A stretch of 35,420 bases of DNA from a virus, in the UHGV virus genome UHGV-0075595, one strand, 5' to 3'. Under the pieces are notes generated by a model. The model worked only from the letters and a program-made list of their open reading frames with translations, was not told the origin of the DNA and made no database searches. A program made the position numbers and the translations under genes. Below are positions 1,935-29,899 of this stretch, in pieces; the first letter of the stretch is position 1; every line of letters begins with the position of its first letter.

Positions 1935-4397
1935 TCAATTCCCTGTTAATTGCAAAACTTGCTCTTCCAGCTTTTTAACCCTGCGTCTCATCATCGCAGA
2001 TTCCAGAATCAGAGCCTCTTCATAACGGATACCGTAACATTCACCAGCCTCGACGGCTTCGCGTACCAGAACCTTTGTCTGTATAAGTGGGTAAACTCCT
2101 GCAGAATGCTCTTCTTCCGTCACATCCCTGTATTCTGCCGGGGTCTCATTCCACTTGTCATAACAGATAAATGCCAGTCGTGACACATCTATGCCTTCAT
2201 TCTGAAATACACTGATAACATGCTGCGCAACTGCACCAAAGTGCCATCTTGCTCCGTCTTTACCTTTCACTTCGATCCTGTCAAGGTACTGGTATGAAAC
2301 CCATTCCACTCTTTCCCATGCGTCCAGTATTTTCTCATCAATAACCTCTGGAGCAGTCTTGAAACGCGCATCGGACAGCACCGTAAACGCTGACTGGGTA
2401 AATCCCCCCGACCATGCACGACCAGCCAACCCAAGAGAATAAGTATTCGTTGTCGATGGTGTCATGGCTGAATCAGAAAACTGTATATATTCTGAATTTC
2501 CAGTAGATATTCGAATATTTCCATTTATTAGCGACATAGTGCCTTTAGTATTATCACTATTGAATAATTTCAATTGCGAACTTATACCGCCTCCCACAGC
2601 CAGAGATACATCGCCTTCAGCAAGCATTCTGAATTTATCTGCAGAAACAAGCGTCTGGTTAGCAAGGTTAAAATATTTAACCCACCATTCAAAACGCCCT
2701 GACATAGTCCCAACGTACTGACCAAGCGCAGGGACGTGAACAACATTGCTATTTGTAGTGCCGTCTATACTGGAAATACCAGTCACCGCTGATGCAGAAC
2801 TCAGAATATTATTTCTGTCACCCGGATGTTTAATTTCAACAAAGTTCCTGATACACCCTTCCTCGAAGGTAACCACGCCGGAAGAACTATACATGGGGAA
2901 TATTGACGCATAATTACTGCGTGCAGCATCTAAGAAACGAATGGTTGTAGATGTCTGCAGATCTCCTGATTCATTTTTCCCATCACACCCAGTCATTAGA
3001 ATATTACTGGCAATATTATTATTTCCCTGAACGGTGACTCCGTGCGCCTGCTTTGCGTCCGATTCAGAGTAATCAACCAGCACATTCGAAATCAGGTTAC
3101 CAGTCCCCTTGCCAACAACTACTGCGGCGTATTTTGGGTTGTTAGCCATTACACTGCTAATGATATTATTCGTTGGGGCAGTTTCCGTCTCAGTTCCATT
3201 GTAAACAACGTGCTGACACTCTTCACCAATAACATTGCTGACAATGTTATATTTTGCTGCTGTTTTAAGTTCCACTGCACCAAACTGAGGATAATTTCTG
3301 GCTATCACACCATCAATTAGCGTATTTTGCGATGAATCAAAAAGCACACAACCTGCTTTTTTATTATTTGCGAACCCTAAATACTCTCCTCTTATATCTC
3401 TAACAATGTAACCTGACGGAATACCATTATTCGGATAAGCGATCAAGCTAAATCCTGTTCCTCGCGTATTTGTAAATCTGATATTTTTAACCGATACATC
3501 ATGGCCACCTGAAAATGACACCTGGTGTCCCTGCACACTATCATCTGATTTATTTCCCATAATTGTTAGCGTACTAAGCATGCCACCATCGGGCATGTTA
3601 AAAACCAGATGATTACCATCTCTGTCATACTGTTTTATCGTTCCCCCACCTGTTCCGTACAAGCCACAACGTGAAAGAGAAACTAAAGATGTATTGAATA
3701 CCCCTTCCGGAACAAAAACACTGCTAAACGAATGTAATGATTTTGTAAAAGCATCCTTGTTATCATTTAAGATTCCATTTTGAGCTCCAAAATCCTTAAT
3801 GCTGACACCATCACGCATCTTATCCTGGAACGTTCTGTATACCGCTCCAGAACCATACTGAATAAACCAACCAAAACCACCAATAACTCCGGCGATTGCA
3901 GCATCGACATAATTACGCATTGAGCGATTATTTACAGCGTCCTGCTCAAGTGATGGATCGGCAAGGTTAGATATTCTGTTTTGCTTTGCATCGTAATATT
4001 TTGCAAGCAAAGATGGTTTCATCAATGCACGTCTGAACCACCCAAAACATCGCTGGATCAGCATCGTCAGGTAGTCAAATGCATCCTCATGAACTTCGGG
4101 GAAAAATTTTCCCTGATTGCGAAGATCAGTCTCCTGCACCACATCAAGCACACGCTCTATCGTGATTCGCCAGCCAGCAGCAAGCGGCGACGGAAGAACC
4201 ACTGCACCGCCACTATAAGTTCCCGCCCCTGTTACCGTATAACCAGCATCCAGCACTAGTTTTGTAACGTTACCGTTAAGGTCAGACACCTGAACAACCA
4301 GGTCGGATTTTTTGAAAATACGGAAGGTATACGGAAATGATGTCGTAACGCCGTTACCTGTGTATTCGTTGTGGTCAACTTCGGTTGAGACCGTCAT
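1935..4397 (-). CDS. Tailspike / tail fiber with N-terminal particle-binding domain, central right-handed beta-helix (depolymerase-like) and C-terminal intramolecular chaperone (peptidase S74-like) domain
   Basis: 820 aa; N-terminal YTGNGVTTSFPYTF motif; central repetitive N/G/S/V-rich beta-helix-like region; C-terminal LSDARFKTAPEV...WHFGAVAQHV...ICYDKW motif; GGAGA RBS. Confidence 0.85.
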   Translation of the reverse strand: MTVSTEVDHNEYTGNGVTTSFPYTFRIFKKSDLVVQVSDLNGNVTKLVLDAGYTVTGAGTYSGGAVVLPSPLAAGWRITIERVLDVVQETDLRNQGKFFPEVHEDAFDYLTMLIQRCFGWFRRALMKPSLLAKYYDAKQNRISNLADPSLEQDAVNNRSMRNYVDAAIAGVIGGFGWFIQYGSGAVYRTFQDKMRDGVSIKDFGAQNGILNDNKDAFTKSLHSFSSVFVPEGVFNTSLVSLSRCGLYGTGGGTIKQYDRDGNHLVFNMPDGGMLSTLTIMGNKSDDSVQGHQVSFSGGHDVSVKNIRFTNTRGTGFSLIAYPNNGIPSGYIVRDIRGEYLGFANNKKAGCVLFDSSQNTLIDGVIARNYPQFGAVELKTAAKYNIVSNVIGEECQHVVYNGTETETAPTNNIISSVMANNPKYAAVVVGKGTGNLISNVLVDYSESDAKQAHGVTVQGNNNIASNILMTGCDGKNESGDLQTSTTIRFLDAARSNYASIFPMYSSSGVVTFEEGCIRNFVEIKHPGDRNNILSSASAVTGISSIDGTTNSNVVHVPALGQYVGTMSGRFEWWVKYFNLANQTLVSADKFRMLAEGDVSLAVGGGISSQLKLFNSDNTKGTMSLINGNIRISTGNSEYIQFSDSAMTPSTTNTYSLGLAGRAWSGGFTQSAFTVLSDARFKTAPEVIDEKILDAWERVEWVSYQYLDRIEVKGKDGARWHFGAVAQHVISVFQNEGIDVSRLAFICYDKWNETPAEYRDVTEEEHSAGVYPLIQTKVLVREAVEAGECYGIRYEEALILESAMMRRRVKKLEEQVLQLTGN

Positions 4398-4501
4398 GTT
4401 AAATCTCCAGATAGTCGCAGCACCCGTTGCGCCGCATATCTGGTTATTCTATTACCCAAAAAACCATATATGGATAGAAAGACTGTGAATATGAATAGAT
4501 A

Positions 4502-4516
4502 TTACCTTTCAGGTAA
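4502..4516. promoter_or_regulatory. Operator-like palindrome TTACCTTTCAGGTAA (member of ATTACC-N5-GGTAAT family)
   Basis: Perfect inverted half-sites; identical 17-mer TATTACCTTTCAGGTAA also at 23570..23586; lies between divergent tailspike and SOS-gene starts. Confidence 0.55.
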
Positions 4517-4555
4517 TTTGCAAAACGTGCTGGATAGCAAACAAATTATTTGCTA

Positions 4556-4571
4556 CTGTATAAATATACAG
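4556..4571 (+). promoter_or_regulatory. LexA (SOS) box CTGTATAAATATACAG overlapping a -10-like TATAAAT
   Basis: Exact CTGT-N8-ACAG with AT-rich centre, extended TACTGTATAAATATACAGTT; 23 bp upstream of ATG at 4594. Confidence 0.6.
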
Positions 4572-4593
4572 TTATTGCATGGAGAAGATTAAG

Positions 4594-4851
4594 ATGCAGC
4601 AGTATCACTATCCACTGGAAGAGGGATTTACCGAAAGGATTCACACGCCGGGAGGCGTCAGGTCACTGGTGGAGGGATCGCACTTGATGAAATTACTCCG
4701 GGATCTCGATAAGGATGGATTTAATGTCGATGGCCCACTTGCCGAACTGACTGCACTGATTAACTACGTCACCAGCTCACAGATGTCTATGCAGGATCTG
4801 CAAACACATCTCGACTATTGTGCCGAACAATTACGAAAACAAACCAGATAA
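4594..4851 (+). CDS. Small protein (85 aa) paralogous to the C-terminal domain of the downstream AntA-domain antirepressor; putative SOS-induced immunity modulator
   Basis: GGAGAAG RBS 6 nt upstream of ATG; shares a colinear motif series with the C-terminus of ORF 5169..5825 (IH-[ST]P-[GS]GV ... LM-LL ... DG-V-G ... ELT ... [DI]LQTH--Y); LexA box in its promoter. Confidence 0.55.
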   Translation: MQQYHYPLEEGFTERIHTPGGVRSLVEGSHLMKLLRDLDKDGFNVDGPLAELTALINYVTSSQMSMQDLQTHLDYCAEQLRKQTR

Positions 4852-4854
4852 GGT

Positions 4855-4897
4855 TTGAAATTACCAAATGGAGTGCTTATATTTACCTTTGCGGTAA
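4855..4897 (+). promoter_or_regulatory. Sigma70-like promoter (TTGAAA-17-TATATT) with operator TTACCTTTGCGGTAA overlapping -10/+1
   Basis: -35 at 4855..4860, -10 at 4878..4883, palindrome 4883..4897 with extended arms ATTTACC/GGTAAAT. Confidence 0.5.
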
Positions 4898-4924
4898 ATT
4901 TACATCGCACTCCTCTTGTGCCAT

Positions 4925-5010
4925 AGTAATCGGGCACTGGCAAAATCCAGTGCCGGGATTGGTCTCCCGGATTACTAAGTGGCGCATACCACGCCAGACG
5001 TGGTTTTTTT
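4925..5010 (+). ncRNA. Candidate structured leader / small RNA upstream of the antirepressor gene (nested hairpins ending in an intrinsic terminator)
   Basis: Hairpin GCACTGG-N6-CCAGTGC (4934..4953), CCGGGA-N6-TCCCGG (4953..4970), outer pairing AGTAATCGGG/CCCGGATTACT, then terminator; track ORF here starts with TTG and has no RBS. Confidence 0.3.
4988..5010 (+). terminator. Rho-independent terminator (ACCACG-ccaga-CGTGGT followed by T7)
   Basis: 6-bp GC-rich stem, 5-nt loop, T-run; sits between promoter at 4855 and antirepressor ATG at 5169. Confidence 0.55.
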
Positions 5011-5168
5011 ATGCGTATAGCACAGTCATGCCAGAATTATGGTGGGCTGAATGGGGGTCCGAAAGGACGCCGGTACCACTTAGGCCGGTAAGACCAACTC
5101 CGTTCAGTTCACCACCATCTGATTGGTCTCAGCGGTGGTGATGTAATTCGCTAAGTGGAGACGCCATC

Positions 5169-5825
5169 ATGAACGCTCAACTCATCCCCGTATTCAACGG
5201 CACTATATCTAACGAAACAGCCCTACTTTGTAATGCCCGCGATCTGCACGCTTTTTTAGGTGTTAAAAAGGTGTTTGCAGCATGGATTACAAATCGCATA
5301 TCAGAATACGAATTCATTGAAAATCAAGACTATATTTTGCTTTCCAATTTGGGAAAGCAAACATCTGGTAGAGGCGGCCACAACCGCAAAGAGTACCACC
5401 TCACCCTTGATACAGCCAAAGAGCTGGCGATGGTCGAGCGTAACGAAAAAGGTCGCCAGGTGCGACGCTACTTCATTGAATGCGAGAAACGTTTAAGACA
5501 ACAAGAAACAAAAGTGGAGAAGGTCTTGTCAGGCTTCATGCCCGCCATTATGGAGGCGATCAAGCTGGAAGACAAAAAAGAATACAGTGCCCCACTGAAG
5601 CCCGGCTACCGCAGCCTGATTCACTCGCCGTCTGGTGTTCTCGGCCTGACGGAGAACTCACTGCTGATGAATCTGCTGAACCAGTTACAGGACGACGGGC
5701 ACGACGTATCGGGCGCGGCGGCGGAGCTGACCACCATGTTCTGCTACATCGTTGGTGTGAGCAAATGCCTGCGTGATATCCAGACGCACGCGGAGTACAT
5801 CAACGACAAGGCAGGGTTCTTCTGA
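5169..5825 (+). CDS. Antirepressor, AntA-domain N-terminus plus C-terminal domain shared with ORF 4594..4851
   Basis: 218 aa; N-terminal LIPVFNG...[10 protein letters not shown]...[22 protein letters not shown]...[33 protein letters not shown] matches AntA-type antirepressor domain as recalled; GGAG RBS. Confidence 0.65.
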
Positions 5826-5869: not shown

Positions 5870-5912
5870 TTGCAGACTGGGGGTGAATAGCGTACTATTA
5901 CCTCAAGGGTAA
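5870..5912 (+). promoter_or_regulatory. Sigma70-like promoter (TTGCAG-17-TACTAT) with operator TTACCTCAAGGGTAA overlapping -10/+1
   Basis: -35 5870..5875, -10 5893..5898, palindrome 5898..5912; same promoter-operator architecture as 4855..4897 and 29857..29899. Confidence 0.5.
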
Positions 5913-5971: not shown

Positions 5972-6604
5972 ATGAGAACAAATACAACAAGAAAAGCGAT
6001 GCCATACATTATCCCAGAAGCAGATTTCGATAGAAAACTGAACATGTCTGAGAAGAACACTAGTCACACCGAAAGCTACTTAGCGAAAGGTGTGGTTGAT
6101 TTCGTTCTTCCGGGATTCACAACACCTTATGGTTATCGCCTTGTAAAATCTTGTAATGGCGATCATTACAGAATGATTACTACCAGCGATACTCCAGAAA
6201 CGGTGTATGCGGTTAAGTTAATCTTTCGGGAAGATATCGTCGAAGCCAAAAGAACATGTACGCAGATCATGGTATGGCGTACGCCTAATGTTATTCATGA
6301 CCGTGCTGTTCATGGTTTGCCTCAGATTTTTTTTCAGTTCTTCCTAGAGCAATATGCGATCGTTGTATCTGATGAGCAACAAACAATCGATGGGAGAAGA
6401 TTCTGGGAAAGAATGATTTCTTGGGCTATAAACACCCCAGGATATAATGTATACGTTTCAGATGGCTCTGAAGAAGATAGACCTCTTAGCTTCATGACAT
6501 CATGGGATGATTTCTATAGCCAGTGGGCTGATTTCTGTTGGGGCAGTGATAAAGATGTGCATACCCACAGACTACTGGTTATAAGCAAAGATAAACTGCA
6601 TTAA
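5972..6604 (+). CDS. Hypothetical protein (210 aa), cargo gene of unknown function in the immunity-like island
   Basis: Strong GGGAGG RBS 5 nt upstream; own operator-controlled promoter and own terminator; no family recognised. Confidence 0.6.
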   Translation: MRTNTTRKAMPYIIPEADFDRKLNMSEKNTSHTESYLAKGVVDFVLPGFTTPYGYRLVKSCNGDHYRMITTSDTPETVYAVKLIFREDIVEAKRTCTQIMVWRTPNVIHDRAVHGLPQIFFQFFLEQYAIVVSDEQQTIDGRRFWERMISWAINTPGYNVYVSDGSEEDRPLSFMTSWDDFYSQWADFCWGSDKDVHTHRLLVISKDKLH

Positions 6605-6630: not shown

Positions 6631-6702
6631 GTGGACGAAACAAAAGTCAGTGCTACACTCATTGACGCCACATTGAGGTGGCTTATAGATGGAAATTTCA
6701 CA

Positions 6703-6864
6703 ATGAAAAAAGCATTTGCTGCACTGTTCGTTTTGTTGTCTCTGGTAGCTTCAACTCAGGCCTTTGCCGGTCGTTGTCAGCACGACAGCGACACTGCTGC
6801 TGACGGCTCCCGCTGCGGTGGGCGTTCTGCGGATTCCCGCCCGGGTGGCGGTGGCATTCGTTAA
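6703..6864 (+). CDS. Candidate small secreted peptide (53 aa; signal peptide MKKAFAALFVLLSLVASTQAFA then Gly/Arg/Asp-rich 31-aa region with two Cys)
   Basis: In-frame ATG inside track ORF 6631..6864; possible promoter TTGACG-16-TATAGA at 6662..6689; weak RBS, so uncertain. Confidence 0.25.
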   Translation: MKKAFAALFVLLSLVASTQAFAGRCQHDSDTAADGSRCGGRSADSRPGGGGIR

Positions 6865-6895: not shown

Positions 6896-7276
6896 TCACG
6901 CAACGCAATTATTACCGCGCCATGTAACATTTTTAATAATCTTATCAGCACCAAACTCAACGTAAACAGAGCAACTGAAATGGAGTGTATAACCGCCATC
7001 AGTTGTTGCGTATGTGTTTGAATATATAGTATTACCAATTAGATTAGACGTAGTATTATACGTTGTGGTTTGTGGTACGTTATAACTACCAGAGCTTGAG
7101 TAAACATACACTCTGTTTCCATCTGGAGATGTAAGCTCTCCCTGAGGATACCCCCACTGCTGAACCATTGCGTCTATACTCTGCCCGCGCCACGTAAGCA
7201 TATTTCTTTCAAACTGTGCAGCTGACTGGCATCCAACGAGAAGCATAAATCCAAAAATCAAAAATACTTTTCTCAT
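6896..7276 (-). CDS. Lipoprotein (predicted), last gene of late operon; possible superinfection-exclusion/surface protein
   Basis: Start at internal ATG giving MRKVFLIFGFMLLVGC lipobox signal; AGGGGT RBS; mature part T/S/N/Y-rich. Confidence 0.55.
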   Translation of the reverse strand: MRKVFLIFGFMLLVGCQSAAQFERNMLTWRGQSIDAMVQQWGYPQGELTSPDGNRVYVYSSSGSYNVPQTTTYNTTSNLIGNTIYSNTYATTDGGYTLHFSCSVYVEFGADKIIKNVTWRGNNCVA

Positions 7277-7323
7277 AATTACCCCTATCATGGAAAAACA
7301 GCACCAATCCACAAATTAACTAG

Positions 7324-19552: not shown

Positions 19553-19572
19553 GTGGGTCTGTTACGACCCAC
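19553..19572 (-). other. RNA stem-loop immediately downstream of major capsid gene (GUGGGUC-N6-GACCCAC)
   Basis: 7-bp perfect stem in 51-nt gap between capsid stop (19589) and next start (19537); no U-tract. Confidence 0.4.
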
Positions 19573-23571: not shown

Positions 23572-23586
23572 TTACCTTTCAGGTAA
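23572..23586. promoter_or_regulatory. Operator-like palindrome TTACCTTTCAGGTAA in the late-operon / tRNA control region
   Basis: Identical to site at 4502..4516; preceded by TTGACA (23550..23555) and AATTAT; half-site TTACCAATTTAACCA at 23510..23524. Confidence 0.55.
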
Positions 23587-23908: not shown

Positions 23909-23985
23909 GTGGCATTAGCTCAGTTGGACAGAGCAACCGCCTTCTAAGCGGTTGGTCGCAGGTTCGAATCCTGCATGCCACGCCA
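23909..23985 (+). tRNA. tRNA-Arg (anticodon UCU, reads AGA/AGG)
   Basis: Manually folded cloverleaf: acceptor GTGGCAT/ATGCCAC, D-stem GCTC/GAGC, anticodon stem ACCGC/GCGGT with loop CTTCTAA, T-arm GCAGG-TTCGAAT-CCTGC, discriminator G, encoded CCA. Confidence 0.85.
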
Positions 23986-29062: not shown

Positions 29063-29125
29063 TCACCCATAAGGTAACAAAAATCAAGGATAGTTACCTA
29101 TGGGGTGCATTTACCTGTTGGGTAA
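29063..29125. promoter_or_regulatory. Immunity operator cluster (three sites: TCACCCATAAGGTAA 29063..29077, TTACCTATGGGGTGC 29094..29108, TTACCTGTTGGGTAA 29111..29125)
   Basis: Three related palindromes in the 154-bp gap between divergent Cro-like and repressor genes; first two are inverted near-copies of each other. Confidence 0.6.
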
Positions 29126-29180: not shown

Positions 29181-29765
29181 ATGAAAAGTATCCAGGACGT
29201 CCGCAGGCAAAATCTCAACGACTTGATCGACCGTGAATTCAATGGTGTTCAGACGCGGATGGCAGAAAAACTTGGAACTCAGGCAAATCTGGTAAACCGC
29301 TGGGCTCTTGGCAAGAAGGTTATCGGCGACCAGGTTGCGCGAAAAATTGAAGCTGCCGCCAATAAACCCCGTAACTGGCTTGATATCGATCGCTCGCTTT
29401 CTCAGGAAGGTTTTCAGCCTGTCGGCCCAAGCGACATTGGTCAGCTGGCAGCTCACAACCTGGAACGCTGGATGAGTGAAAGCCGCGACCTTTCAACTCA
29501 GGGAAAACTTCACCGCGCATCCGGCGTCGCCCAGGTGACAATCAGTCGCCTGTTAAACAATGAGGTCAGCGTTTCCATTTCCACCCTGGAGAATGTTGCA
29601 TCCGCATTCGGGCGTCACGGATATGAACTACTGATTCACCCGCACGACCCTGCGACTATCAACTATGACCGCTCGCGCTACGCATTGTTACCCGAAACCG
29701 AGAAAGCAAAGATCGAAAGTTACATTGAATTTGTCATCAACCAGAACGAAAAAAACAAACAATAA
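29181..29765 (+). CDS. Repressor with tandem XRE-type HTH domains, no recognisable LexA-like S24 autocleavage domain
   Basis: 194 aa; two HTH-like segments (MAEKLGTQANLVNRWALGKK... and LHRASGVAQVTISRLLNNEV...); followed by strong terminator. Confidence 0.6.
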   Translation: MKSIQDVRRQNLNDLIDREFNGVQTRMAEKLGTQANLVNRWALGKKVIGDQVARKIEAAANKPRNWLDIDRSLSQEGFQPVGPSDIGQLAAHNLERWMSESRDLSTQGKLHRASGVAQVTISRLLNNEVSVSISTLENVASAFGRHGYELLIHPHDPATINYDRSRYALLPETEKAKIESYIEFVINQNEKNKQ

Positions 29766-29822: not shown

Positions 29823-29899
29823 TTACCTAATGGGTAATTTTTTTAACTCATATCTATTGACATCAAACCAAATACGCATAATTATTACCTCAACGGTAA
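29823..29899 (+). promoter_or_regulatory. Left-operon-like promoter (TTGACA-17-AATTAT) flanked by two operators (TTACCTAATGGGTAA 29823..29837; TTACCTCAACGGTAA 29885..29899)
   Basis: -35 at 29857..29862; operators 62 bp apart centre to centre; downstream operator overlaps -10/+1. Confidence 0.55.

What the first reader, a model, noticed from the sequence alone, without database searches (positions are those of the whole stretch)
4554..4851. Perfect LexA (SOS) box controlling a small gene in the immunity island
TACTGTATAAATATACAGTT (4554..4573) is a textbook CTGT-N8-ACAG LexA box and overlaps a -10-like TATAAAT, 23 bp upstream of a well-initiated 85-aa ORF (GGAGAAG RBS). The phage repressor has two HTH domains and no recognisable RecA-cleavable S24 domain. 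A LexA-repressed small protein is therefore the most plausible SOS input for induction, as in Tum/antirepressor-type systems.
Basis: partly seen in the sequence, partly recalled or inferred. Interest (0 to 1): 0.8.

Follow-up and report, generated by a model that had tools for sequence, protein, structure and literature searches.

The report
LexA-controlled phage antirepressor gene (Ant)
This is a genuine SOS (LexA) operator in front of a small phage gene whose product switches off the prophage repressor after DNA damage. The same switch has already been worked out, down to crystal structures, in the closely related Salmonella phage SPC32H, so it is correct but not new.

Summary
TACTGTATAAATATACAGTT sits at 4554-4573 and is the only strong LexA box in the 35 kb window. 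It scores 27.9 bits; the next best site scores 8.3, and the best of 200 shuffles reached 21.0.

The 85-aa ORF (4594-4851) matches the 86-aa antirepressor Ant of Salmonella phage SPC32H (PDB 5D50 chain E, E=1.6e-47; 88-89% identical). The window's repressor (29181-29765) is a homologue of SPC32H Rep (5D50 chain A, E=4e-42). It has HTH domains only and no S24 peptidase domain.

The window is an epsilon15/phiV10-like E. coli phage (Uetakevirus). The box, a TGGAxA -35-like block, the Shine-Dalgarno sequence and the ATG are conserved across Escherichia, Salmonella and Enterobacter relatives. SPC32N, the near-identical sister record of SPC32H, differs from it by one base inside this box.

- a Rep-operator palindrome lies 37 bp upstream of the box;
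- a complete P1-immI-like isrK/C4 antisense-RNA unit lies just downstream;
- that unit controls a second, larger antirepressor whose C-terminal domain is a paralogue of Ant.

The parts
4554..4573 (.). LexA (SOS) box TACTGTATAAATATACAGTT, overlapping the ant promoter
   Evidence: Sequence read. It has 2 mismatches to the 20-mer consensus and is unique in the window; none of 100 shuffles gave a hit. PSSM score 27.9 bits, against 8.3 for the next site. Conserved in relatives. The SPC32N variant maps inside the homologous box.
4531..4559 (+). Most likely ant promoter (inferred): -35 TGGATA (4531-4536), 17-nt spacer, -10 TACTGT (4554-4559, the left arm of the LexA box). Alternative: -35 TAGCAA (4535-4540), 18-nt spacer, -10 TATAAA (4559-4564).
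   Evidence: TGGAxA is invariant in all 11 aligned relatives while its flanks vary. The phage 186 p95 record annotates TACTGT, the left arm of its own LexA box, as the -10. The simple sigma-70 scan did not call either version. The transcription start is not mapped here.
4581..4587 (+). Shine-Dalgarno sequence GGAGAAG of ant
   Evidence: Sequence. GGAG is invariant in 11 relatives.
4594..4851 (+). ant: 85-aa antirepressor, orthologue of SPC32H Ant, phiV10p24 and epsilon15 gp19
   Evidence: PDB 5D50_E, E=1.6e-47. tblastn shows 96-99% identity in E. coli relatives, 85-89% in Salmonella, 78-84% in Enterobacter and 60-64% in Klebsiella. PHROG 450. Protein alignment.
4502..4516 (.). Rep-operator-type palindrome TTACCTTTCAGGTAA between the tailspike gene and ant, 37 bp upstream of the LexA box
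   Evidence: TTACC-N5-GGTAA gives 12 hits at up to 1 mismatch in the window against 0.53 expected; none of 100 shuffles reached 12. The homologous site is annotated 'repressor' protein_bind in the epsilon15 RefSeq record. Conserved in all 11 relatives.
29181..29765 (+). rep: 194-aa prophage repressor, the presumed target of Ant
   Evidence: 5D50_A 'Repressor', E=4e-42, and 5D4Z (C-terminal domain), E=4e-20. HTH_3 at 106-147, weak HTH at 21-61, no S24 domain. 42% identical to SPC32H Rep. Found in the same set of phage records as ant.
29063..29125 (.). Operator palindromes between rep and the divergent cro-like ORF (29063-29077 with one mismatch; 29111-29125). Further copies lie downstream of rep at 29823-29837 and 29885-29899.
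   Evidence: The same clustering on both sides of rep is seen in epsilon15 and SPC32H.
4883..4897 (.). Second Rep-operator palindrome TTACCTTTGCGGTAA. It abuts or overlaps the promoter-like sites that would drive isrK-C4-ant2.
   Evidence: Promoter-like sites are TTGAAA-17-TATATT (4855-4883) and TTTACA-17-CATAGT (4899-4927). The palindrome arms are conserved in phiv142-3, phiV10 and Tyrion while the central N5 varies.
4934..5010 (+). isrK-type RNA element ending in an intrinsic terminator. It carries decoy sites a1 TTGGTCT (4959-4965) and b1 CTAAGTGG (4975-4982).
   Evidence: Rfam RF01394, 67.7 bits against a gathering score of 50. Terminator at 4988-5004 followed by a T run. Complementarity to C4.
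5035..5119 (+). C4-type antisense RNA, with single-stranded b' CCACUUAG (5076-5083) and a' AGACCAA (5091-5097)
   Evidence: Rfam RF01695, 61.2 bits against a gathering score of 45. Fold and complementarity. The a and b sites co-vary in isrK, C4 and the ant2 leader in phiV10 and Tyrion.
5169..5825 (+). ant2: 218-aa antirepressor with an AntA N-terminal domain and a C-terminal domain paralogous to Ant. Its leader carries a2 TTGGTCT (5123-5129) and b2 CTAAGTGG (5151-5158), which overlaps its Shine-Dalgarno sequence.
   Evidence: PF08346 AntA, E=4e-26. PHROG 377 'anti-repressor Ant' and PHROG 450 over residues 135-216. 42% identity to Ant over 74 aa, E=6e-16. Target sites.

Best explanation
The window carries the lytic switch of an epsilon15/phiV10-like (Uetakevirus) E. 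coli prophage, of the type characterised in Salmonella phage SPC32H.

**In a lysogen (inferred).** Host LexA binds the near-consensus box at 4554-4573. The box covers the -10 and start region of the ant promoter, so the 85-aa Ant protein is not made. The repressor Rep (29181-29765) has no autocleavage domain and holds the phage silent through TTACC-N5-GGTAA operators.

**After DNA damage (inferred).** RecA-stimulated self-cleavage of LexA frees the ant promoter and Ant accumulates. Ant binds Rep and takes the DNA-binding Rep tetramer apart into dimers, releasing it from the operators and starting lytic growth.

**Shown here by computation:** the box and its strength, its conservation, the orthology of Ant and Rep to the crystallised pair, and the lack of an S24 domain in Rep.

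**Taken from the SPC32H literature and inferred by orthology, not tested on this phage:** LexA binding, SOS induction of ant, and Ant-Rep binding.
For: - **Box.** Present and unique in the window. It scores 27.9 bits, above all 22 reference SOS boxes.
- **Conservation.** The box, the TGGAxA block, the Shine-Dalgarno sequence and the ATG are conserved while flanking intergenic bases vary, across E. coli, Salmonella and Enterobacter relatives.
- **Ant.** Matches 5D50_E 'Anti-repressor protein', E=1.6e-47.
- **Rep.** Matches 5D50_A 'Repressor', E=4e-42. No S24 domain.
- **GenBank annotation.** SPC32H and SPC32N annotate the orthologues as ant and rep.
- **Natural variant.** SPC32H and SPC32N differ by a C-to-A change in the ACAG arm of the homologous box, which lowers the PSSM score from 25.5 to 18.1 bits.
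- **Co-occurrence.** Ant and Rep are found in essentially the same 35-37 phage records.
- **Literature held in the library.** LexA cleavage leads to Ant, which inhibits the repressor by protein-protein contact, citing Kim & Ryu 2013 (PMC7380047). The Ant tetramer binds two Rep dimers and breaks the Rep tetramer (PMC9638917).
- **Precedent for the promoter layout.** Phage 186 p95 has the same arrangement, a LexA box whose left arm is the annotated -10.
Against: - Nothing was measured on this phage.
- Neither primary SPC32H paper could be read with the tools. The details of LexA control rest on my memory of their abstracts plus secondary citations.
- The window's Rep is only 42% identical to SPC32H Rep, whereas Ant is 88-89% identical. 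Conservation of the Ant-Rep interface is therefore assumed, not shown.
- The promoter hexamers are weak. The consensus scan did not call them, and the transcription start is unmapped.
- A second antirepressor (ant2) in the same island could make Ant non-essential for induction in this particular phage.
Confidence: 0.9

Rival explanations
1. The box and Ant work as described, but in this E. coli lineage Ant is redundant with, or mainly a trigger for, the downstream Rep- and C4-controlled Ant2. Deleting ant alone would then not abolish SOS induction, or Ant2 would carry most of the anti-repression.
For: ant2 has a C-terminal domain 42% identical to Ant. It lies 317 nt downstream on the same strand. 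There is no + strand terminator before the isrK terminator, and a Rep-operator palindrome sits at its promoter region.
Against: No LexA box lies near ant2: the next best PSSM site anywhere in the window scores 8.3 bits. ant2 translation is predicted to be blocked by C4 RNA. The SPC32H-clade Salmonella relatives lack ant2 altogether, so Ant is their only antirepressor at this locus.
Confidence: 0.1
2. Ant acts mainly in trans on repressors of other resident prophages (cross-talk, as with Gifsy antirepressors) rather than on its own Rep. This would explain why Ant is far more conserved than Rep between the E. coli and Salmonella clades.
For: Ant is 88-89% identical and Rep only 42% identical between the window and SPC32H. 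Cross-acting LexA-controlled antirepressors are documented (PMC3121763).
Against: Ant and Rep co-occur in the same phage records. The crystallised complex is Ant with its own Rep. The operator half-sites are the same in both clades.
Confidence: 0.05
3. The palindrome is a chance AT-rich inverted repeat, or it serves the divergent tailspike gene, and has nothing to do with LexA control of the small ORF.
For: The 16-nt core motif alone is not rare: 10 of 100 shuffles gave at least 2 hits. The tailspike start lies 157 bp away on the other strand.
Against: The full 20-mer is unique and scores above bona fide SOS boxes. It is conserved at a fixed distance from the ant Shine-Dalgarno sequence and ATG in three host genera. 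A natural point mutation in the homologous box distinguishes SPC32H from its sister SPC32N.
Confidence: 0.02

Closest known systems
Rep/Ant/LexA lytic switch of Salmonella phage SPC32H (Kim & Ryu 2013, J Virol 87:11775; Kim et al. 2016, PNAS 113:E2480; PDB 5D50, 5D4Z)
   Same: - Same genus (Uetakevirus).
- Same gene position, divergent from the tailspike gene.
- Ant is 88-89% identical.
- The LexA box lies at the same distance from the Shine-Dalgarno sequence and ATG.
- Rep homologue without an S24 domain.
- Same TTACC-N5-GGTAA operator type, including one copy upstream of ant.
   Different: - Rep is only 42% identical.
- The box spacer differs (ATAAATAT against ATGTTTAT).
- The E. coli phage has an extra isrK/C4/ant2 unit and further ORFs inserted downstream of ant. 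In SPC32H and epsilon15, ant is followed directly by the late operon.
Tum of coliphage 186 (LexA-repressed p95 promoter; antirepressor of 186 CI)
   Same: Same logic: a non-cleavable repressor inactivated by a small protein made from a LexA-controlled promoter outside the immunity region. The 186 box TACTGTATGTTTATACAGTA is identical to the epsilon15 box, and its left arm is annotated as the -10.
   Different: No sequence similarity (BLASTP E=0.28). Tum is 146 aa with a DinI-like C-terminal half (PMC3121763). The repressor family and phage type (P2-like myovirus) are also different.
Gifsy-1/2/3 antirepressors GfoA/GftA and N15 AntC (LexA-controlled, trans-acting)
   Same: Small LexA-controlled antirepressors encoded away from the immunity region, acting on non-cleavable repressors (PMC3121763).
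   Different: These are operons that begin with a dinI homologue and act on different repressor families. I did not make a direct pairwise comparison. tblastn of Ant against the phage collection returned only Uetakevirus-type records and a few Klebsiella prophage-like records.
P1/P7/N15 immI (c4/cA antisense RNA controlling ant) and the Gifsy-1 isrK locus. These apply to the module downstream of the finding.
   Same: Rfam C4 and isrK matches lie above their gathering scores. The three-part a/b complementarity (decoy sites upstream, C4, and target sites over the ant2 RBS) co-varies between phages. An operator-like site for the main repressor lies at the promoter. In Gifsy-1, short IsrK activates translation of the read-through mRNA (PMC4825925).
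   Different: There is no icd-like leader ORF: the C4 target overlaps the ant2 Shine-Dalgarno sequence directly. Here the unit sits immediately behind a LexA-gated ant gene, and its antirepressor carries an Ant-type C-terminal domain.

Membership tests
SPC32H-type Ant antirepressor (Uetakevirus Rep/Ant/LexA switch) | Sequence homology to SPC32H Ant over its full length | tested here: met
   5D50_E, E=1.6e-47, aligned over residues 2-84 of 85. 88-89% identity.
SPC32H-type Ant antirepressor (Uetakevirus Rep/Ant/LexA switch) | LexA box overlapping the ant promoter | tested here: met
   A 27.9-bit box at 4554-4573, in the same alignment columns as the SPC32H box. Promoter overlap is inferred from the hexamers, not from a mapped start.
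SPC32H-type Ant antirepressor (Uetakevirus Rep/Ant/LexA switch) | Cognate Rep homologue that lacks a RecA-dependent autocleavage (S24) domain | tested here: met
   5D50_A, E=4e-42. Pfam finds only HTH families. Ant and Rep co-occur in the same records.
SPC32H-type Ant antirepressor (Uetakevirus Rep/Ant/LexA switch) | Conserved genomic position: between the late structural operon and the tailspike gene, divergent from the tailspike gene | tested here: met
   Tailspike at 1935-4397 (-), ant at 4594-4851 (+). Same layout in SPC32H, epsilon15, phiV10 and others.
SPC32H-type Ant antirepressor (Uetakevirus Rep/Ant/LexA switch) | SOS-dependent expression of ant, and physical inactivation of Rep by Ant | not testable with these tools
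   Needs EMSA or reporter assays and Ant-Rep binding assays. Known only for SPC32H (literature; PMC9638917; PMC7380047).
Tum/DinI-fusion antirepressors (phage 186, Fels-2, PSP3) | Sequence homology to Tum, and a DinI-like C-terminal half | tested here: not met
   BLASTP against 186 Tum gives E=0.28. No DinI or other relevant Pfam family was found for Ant.
Tum/DinI-fusion antirepressors (phage 186, Fels-2, PSP3) | LexA-repressed promoter driving an antirepressor gene outside the immunity region | tested here: met
   The system works like Tum but is not a family member.
P1-type immI c4 antisense-RNA/ant unit (downstream module 4883-5825) | C4 RNA matching the Rfam covariance model | tested here: met
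   RF01695, 61.2 bits against a gathering score of 45.
P1-type immI c4 antisense-RNA/ant unit (downstream module 4883-5825) | Two short C4 segments complementary to sites upstream (decoy) and to sites over the RBS of the regulated gene | tested here: met
   The a sites are TTGGTCT/AGACCAA and the b sites CTAAGTGG/CCACTTAG, at 4959, 4975, 5076, 5091, 5123 and 5151. They co-vary in phiV10 and Tyrion.
P1-type immI c4 antisense-RNA/ant unit (downstream module 4883-5825) | icd-like leader ORF translationally coupled to ant | tested here: not met
   There is no ORF between C4 (ends 5119) and the ant2 ATG at 5169. The b2 site overlaps the ant2 Shine-Dalgarno sequence directly.

The most novel reading that the evidence does not exclude
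In the E. coli branch of these phages the LexA-gated ant gene may be wired to a second antirepressor by two routes.

- **RNA route.** No + strand terminator lies between the ant stop codon (4851) and the isrK terminator (4988-5010). An SOS-induced ant transcript would therefore end with the isrK element and its a1/b1 sites. It could act like short IsrK, or as a sponge for C4 RNA, and unlock translation of Ant2.
- **Repressor route.** Inactivating Rep would also free the Rep-operator-bearing promoter of isrK-C4-ant2.

Together these would form an SOS-triggered, RNA-mediated feed-forward amplifier of anti-repression. I have not seen such a coupling described.
Probability: 0.15. Interest if true: 0.5.

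Novelty: already known. Interest (0 to 1): 0.2.

Why it matters
The finding correctly identifies how this prophage senses DNA damage. That matters in practice because the same locus is present in 529 of 5,426 complete E. coli genomes, and in every hit listed it is annotated 'hypothetical protein'. No Pfam or NCBIfam model covers Ant. Annotation pipelines therefore miss a characterised induction switch, and antibiotics that trigger the SOS response would be expected to induce these prophages through it. As biology it adds nothing beyond the SPC32H work. The only part that might be new is the possible coupling to the downstream C4/isrK-controlled second antirepressor.

Tried and rejected
- **Primary papers.** I tried to read Kim & Ryu 2013 (DOI and PMC3807360), Kim et al. 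2016 (DOI and PMC4983836) and the epsilon15 genome paper (PMC2698709). None is held. I used secondary citations and direct sequence comparison instead.
- **Protein family libraries.** Pfam, NCBIfam and PADLOC give nothing meaningful for Ant. The only hit is a sub-threshold DUF724 match, which I take as chance.
- **Homology to Tum.** Tested and rejected (E=0.28), although one review calls Ant 'homologous to Tum'.
- **Alternative start at 4579 (90 aa).** Rejected: it has no RBS, and the equivalent ATG is out of frame in SPC32H.
- **TATAAAT as the -10.** The conserved TGGAxA block 17 nt upstream of TACTGT, together with the phage 186 p95 precedent, favours TACTGT. The consensus promoter scan called neither.
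- **The CTGT-N8-ACAG core as evidence by itself.** Rejected as insufficient.
- **The second core match at 19559.** It did not reach the twelve best PSSM sites, so it scores below 5.0 bits, and I dismissed it.

Full report
**What the window is.** The region around the finding is 98.5% identical to Escherichia phage phiv142-3 and about 90-93% identical to phiV10, TL-2011b and other E. coli members of the genus Uetakevirus (epsilon15-like podoviruses). The tailspike gene lies at 1935-4397 on the minus strand. The finding sits in the intergenic region just upstream of it, heading a small island of plus-strand genes that interrupts the minus-strand late operon.

**The observation.** The sequence is as described:
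- TACTGTATAAATATACAGTT at 4554-4573;
- TATAAAT at 4559-4565;
- GGAGAAG at 4581-4587;
- ATG at 4594, with the stop codon ending at 4851 (85 aa).

The bare CTGT-N8-ACAG core is not significant on its own: 2 hits against 0.54 expected, and 10 of 100 shuffles had at least 2. The 20-mer is significant. It is the only site in the window within 3 mismatches of the LexA consensus, and no shuffle produced one.

I built a symmetrised PSSM from 22 E. coli SOS boxes. These were recalled from the literature, so individual sites may contain small errors. The box scores 27.9 bits, above every training site. The next best site in the window scores 8.3 bits, and the best of 200 shuffles reached 21.0.

**What the small ORF is.** It has no Pfam or NCBIfam family and falls in PHROG 450, 'unknown function'. 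It nevertheless matches PDB 5D50 chain E, 'Anti-repressor protein', with E=1.6e-47 over residues 2-84. That chain is the 86-aa Ant of Salmonella phage SPC32H, whose GenBank record annotates the orthologue as 'ant: anti-repressor protein'.

Identity to the window protein varies by host genus:

| Relatives | Identity to window Ant |
|---|---|
| E. coli | 96-99% |
| Salmonella (SPC32H, SPN1S, epsilon15 gp19) | 85-89% |
| Enterobacter | 78-84% |
| Klebsiella | 60-64% |

The 4594 start is the conserved one. The ATG at 4579 lacks an RBS, and its SPC32H equivalent is out of frame with the annotated start.

**The repressor.** The 194-aa ORF at 29181-29765 matches 5D50 chain A, 'Repressor' (E=4e-42), and 5D4Z, the Rep C-terminal domain. 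Pfam finds an HTH_3 domain at 106-147 and a weak second HTH at 21-61, and no Peptidase_S24 domain. Rep and Ant occur in essentially the same 35-37 phage records.

**Conservation of the control region.** I aligned the tailspike-ant intergenic region from 11 phages.
- The LexA box is kept with both arms intact in all Escherichia, Salmonella and Enterobacter members except the SPC32N variant described below. Scores run from 22.5 to 27.9 bits.
- The three Klebsiella sequences aligned have ATGT in place of CTGT in the left arm; the two variants scored give 16-18 bits.
- Also conserved are a TGGAxA block 17 nt upstream of TACTGT, the GGAG of the Shine-Dalgarno sequence, and the ATG.

In phage 186 the experimentally studied, LexA-controlled p95 promoter is annotated with TACTGT, the left arm of its own LexA box, as the -10. 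On that basis I favour -35 TGGATA (4531-4536) and -10 TACTGT (4554-4559). Either way the box covers the -10 and start region.

**A natural experiment in the sequences.** SPC32H and SPC32N differ at only two positions across 5.2 kb. One of them is a C-to-A change in the ACAG arm of the homologous box, TACTGTATGTTTATA[C/A]AGTG. It drops the PSSM score from 25.5 to 18.1 bits. This agrees with my recollection of the abstract of Kim & Ryu 2013: a single base change in the LexA site makes Ant constitutive and drives SPC32N into lytic growth.

**Literature.** The primary papers could not be read with the tools. Papers held in the library summarise them.
- LexA self-cleavage leads to synthesis of Ant, which inhibits the repressor by protein-protein interaction (PMC7380047).
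- Rep binds DNA as a tetramer, and the Ant tetramer binds two Rep dimers and breaks the tetramer (PMC9638917).

**Mechanism.** LexA represses Pant in the lysogen. DNA damage leads to LexA cleavage and Ant synthesis. Ant disassembles Rep tetramers, Rep leaves its operators, and lytic growth begins.
- Shown here: the box and its strength, its conservation, the orthology of both proteins, and the absence of an S24 domain.
- Inferred by orthology: LexA binding, SOS induction and Ant-Rep binding in this phage.

One caveat applies. Rep is only 42% identical to SPC32H Rep, while Ant is 88-89% identical.

**Comparison with known systems.** The system works like 186 Tum, N15 AntC and the Gifsy antirepressors (PMC3121763). 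Ant is not a member of the Tum family: BLASTP gives E=0.28, and there is no DinI-like half. It is a member of the SPC32H Ant family on every criterion I could test. The finding is therefore correct but already known.

**Rep operators.** The palindrome TTACC-N5-GGTAA occurs 12 times in the window at up to 1 mismatch, against 0.53 expected. Copies flank rep on both sides, and the same motif and distribution are found in epsilon15 and SPC32H. The epsilon15 RefSeq record annotates these sites as 'repressor' binding sites. One copy (4502-4516) lies 37 bp upstream of the LexA box and is conserved in all 11 relatives.

**The downstream module.** Immediately after ant, Rfam finds an isrK element (4934-5010, 67.7 bits) and a C4 antisense RNA (5035-5119, 61.2 bits). 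They are followed by a 218-aa antirepressor, ant2 (5169-5825). It has an AntA N-terminal domain and a C-terminal domain 42% identical to Ant.
- The C4 loop and bulge (CCACUUAG, AGACCAA) are complementary to paired sites in isrK, and again in the ant2 leader over its Shine-Dalgarno sequence.
- In phiV10 and Tyrion all three sets of sites change together. This is the classic P1/P7 c4 arrangement, with phage-specific specificities.
- A further Rep-operator palindrome (4883-4897) sits at the promoter-like sites for this unit.
- SPC32H and epsilon15 lack the module.

**A speculative link.** No plus-strand terminator lies between ant and the isrK terminator. SOS-induced ant transcripts may therefore carry the isrK sites. 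In Gifsy-1, short IsrK activates translation of the read-through mRNA in trans (PMC4825925). This would link LexA to Ant2. It is speculation, and I give it about 15%.

**Annotation gap.** The ant locus is present in 529 of 5,426 complete E. coli genomes, and in every hit listed it is annotated 'hypothetical protein'.

Noticed in passing
window 4883-5825: A complete P1-immI-like unit lies directly behind ant. It consists of an isrK element (4934-5010), C4 antisense RNA (5035-5119) and ant2 (5169-5825). The a/b complementarity is three-way: 4959/4975 in isrK, 5091/5076 in C4, and 5123/5151 over the ant2 Shine-Dalgarno sequence. All three sets co-vary in phiV10 and Tyrion, which implies phage-specific C4 specificities, as between P1 and P7.
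   Followed up: yes
window 4502, 4883, 5898, 23572, 26718, 26780, 28726, 29063, 29111, 29823, 29885 (each 15 bp): TTACC-N5-GGTAA palindromes occur 12 times at up to 1 mismatch, against 0.53 expected. They flank rep and precede several transcription units, including ant/tailspike, isrK-C4-ant2 and the ORF at 5972. The same motif and distribution occur in epsilon15 and SPC32H. The epsilon15 RefSeq record calls them repressor binding sites. Whether the copy at 4502 acts on Pant or on the tailspike promoter is unknown.
   Followed up: partly
window 5169-5825 (residues 135-216) versus 4594-4851: The SPC32H-type Ant fold recurs as the C-terminal domain of a larger AntA-type antirepressor. phiV10 has the same region of similarity at its equivalent gene, which carries a BRO-N N-terminal domain instead. 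TL-2011b and HEMP4 have three Ant-domain matches each. Standalone Ant may therefore be the effector domain of many proteins annotated 'Ant'.
   Followed up: partly
window 29181-29765 versus 4594-4851: Between the E. coli and Salmonella clades, Rep has diverged to 42% identity while Ant stays at 88-89% and the operator half-sites stay the same. The central 5 bases of the operators are A/T-rich in the Salmonella phages and more mixed in the window. This may reflect different immunity types sharing one antirepressor.
   Followed up: partly
L008-L010 (Klebsiella relatives), about 20 nt upstream of the ant ATG: The three Klebsiella relatives aligned have ATGT instead of CTGT in the left arm of the box. 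The two variants scored give 16-18 bits, about the same as the constitutive SPC32N mutant box (18.1 bits). LexA control of ant may be weaker or leaky in that clade.
   Followed up: no
window 4480-4860; 529 E. coli genomes: The ant locus occurs in about 10% of complete E. coli genomes, and in every hit listed it is annotated 'hypothetical protein'. No Pfam or NCBIfam model exists for this structurally characterised antirepressor.
   Followed up: partly
window 5972-6604 (+): A 210-aa ORF of unknown function (PHROG 1349, with no Pfam, NCBIfam or PADLOC hit) lies in the same plus-strand island, preceded by a Rep-operator palindrome at 5898-5912. It is absent from phiv142-3 and phiV10 at this position, so it may be a Rep-controlled moron. 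Next to it are a small ORF that looks like a secreted protein (inside 6631-6864, +) and a lipoprotein-like ORF (inside 6896-7312, -).
   Followed up: partly
window 23909-23982 (+): A tRNA gene (Rfam tRNA, 73.3 bits) lies at a position equivalent to the tRNA-Arg annotated in SPC32H. A Rep-operator palindrome lies nearby at 23572.
   Followed up: no
L013 2545-2564 (phage 186 p95): The LexA box of phage 186 p95 (TACTGTATGTTTATACAGTA) is base-for-base identical to the epsilon15 ant box, although Tum and Ant are unrelated proteins. I take this as convergence on a near-consensus box, or possibly exchange of a promoter cassette.
   Followed up: no
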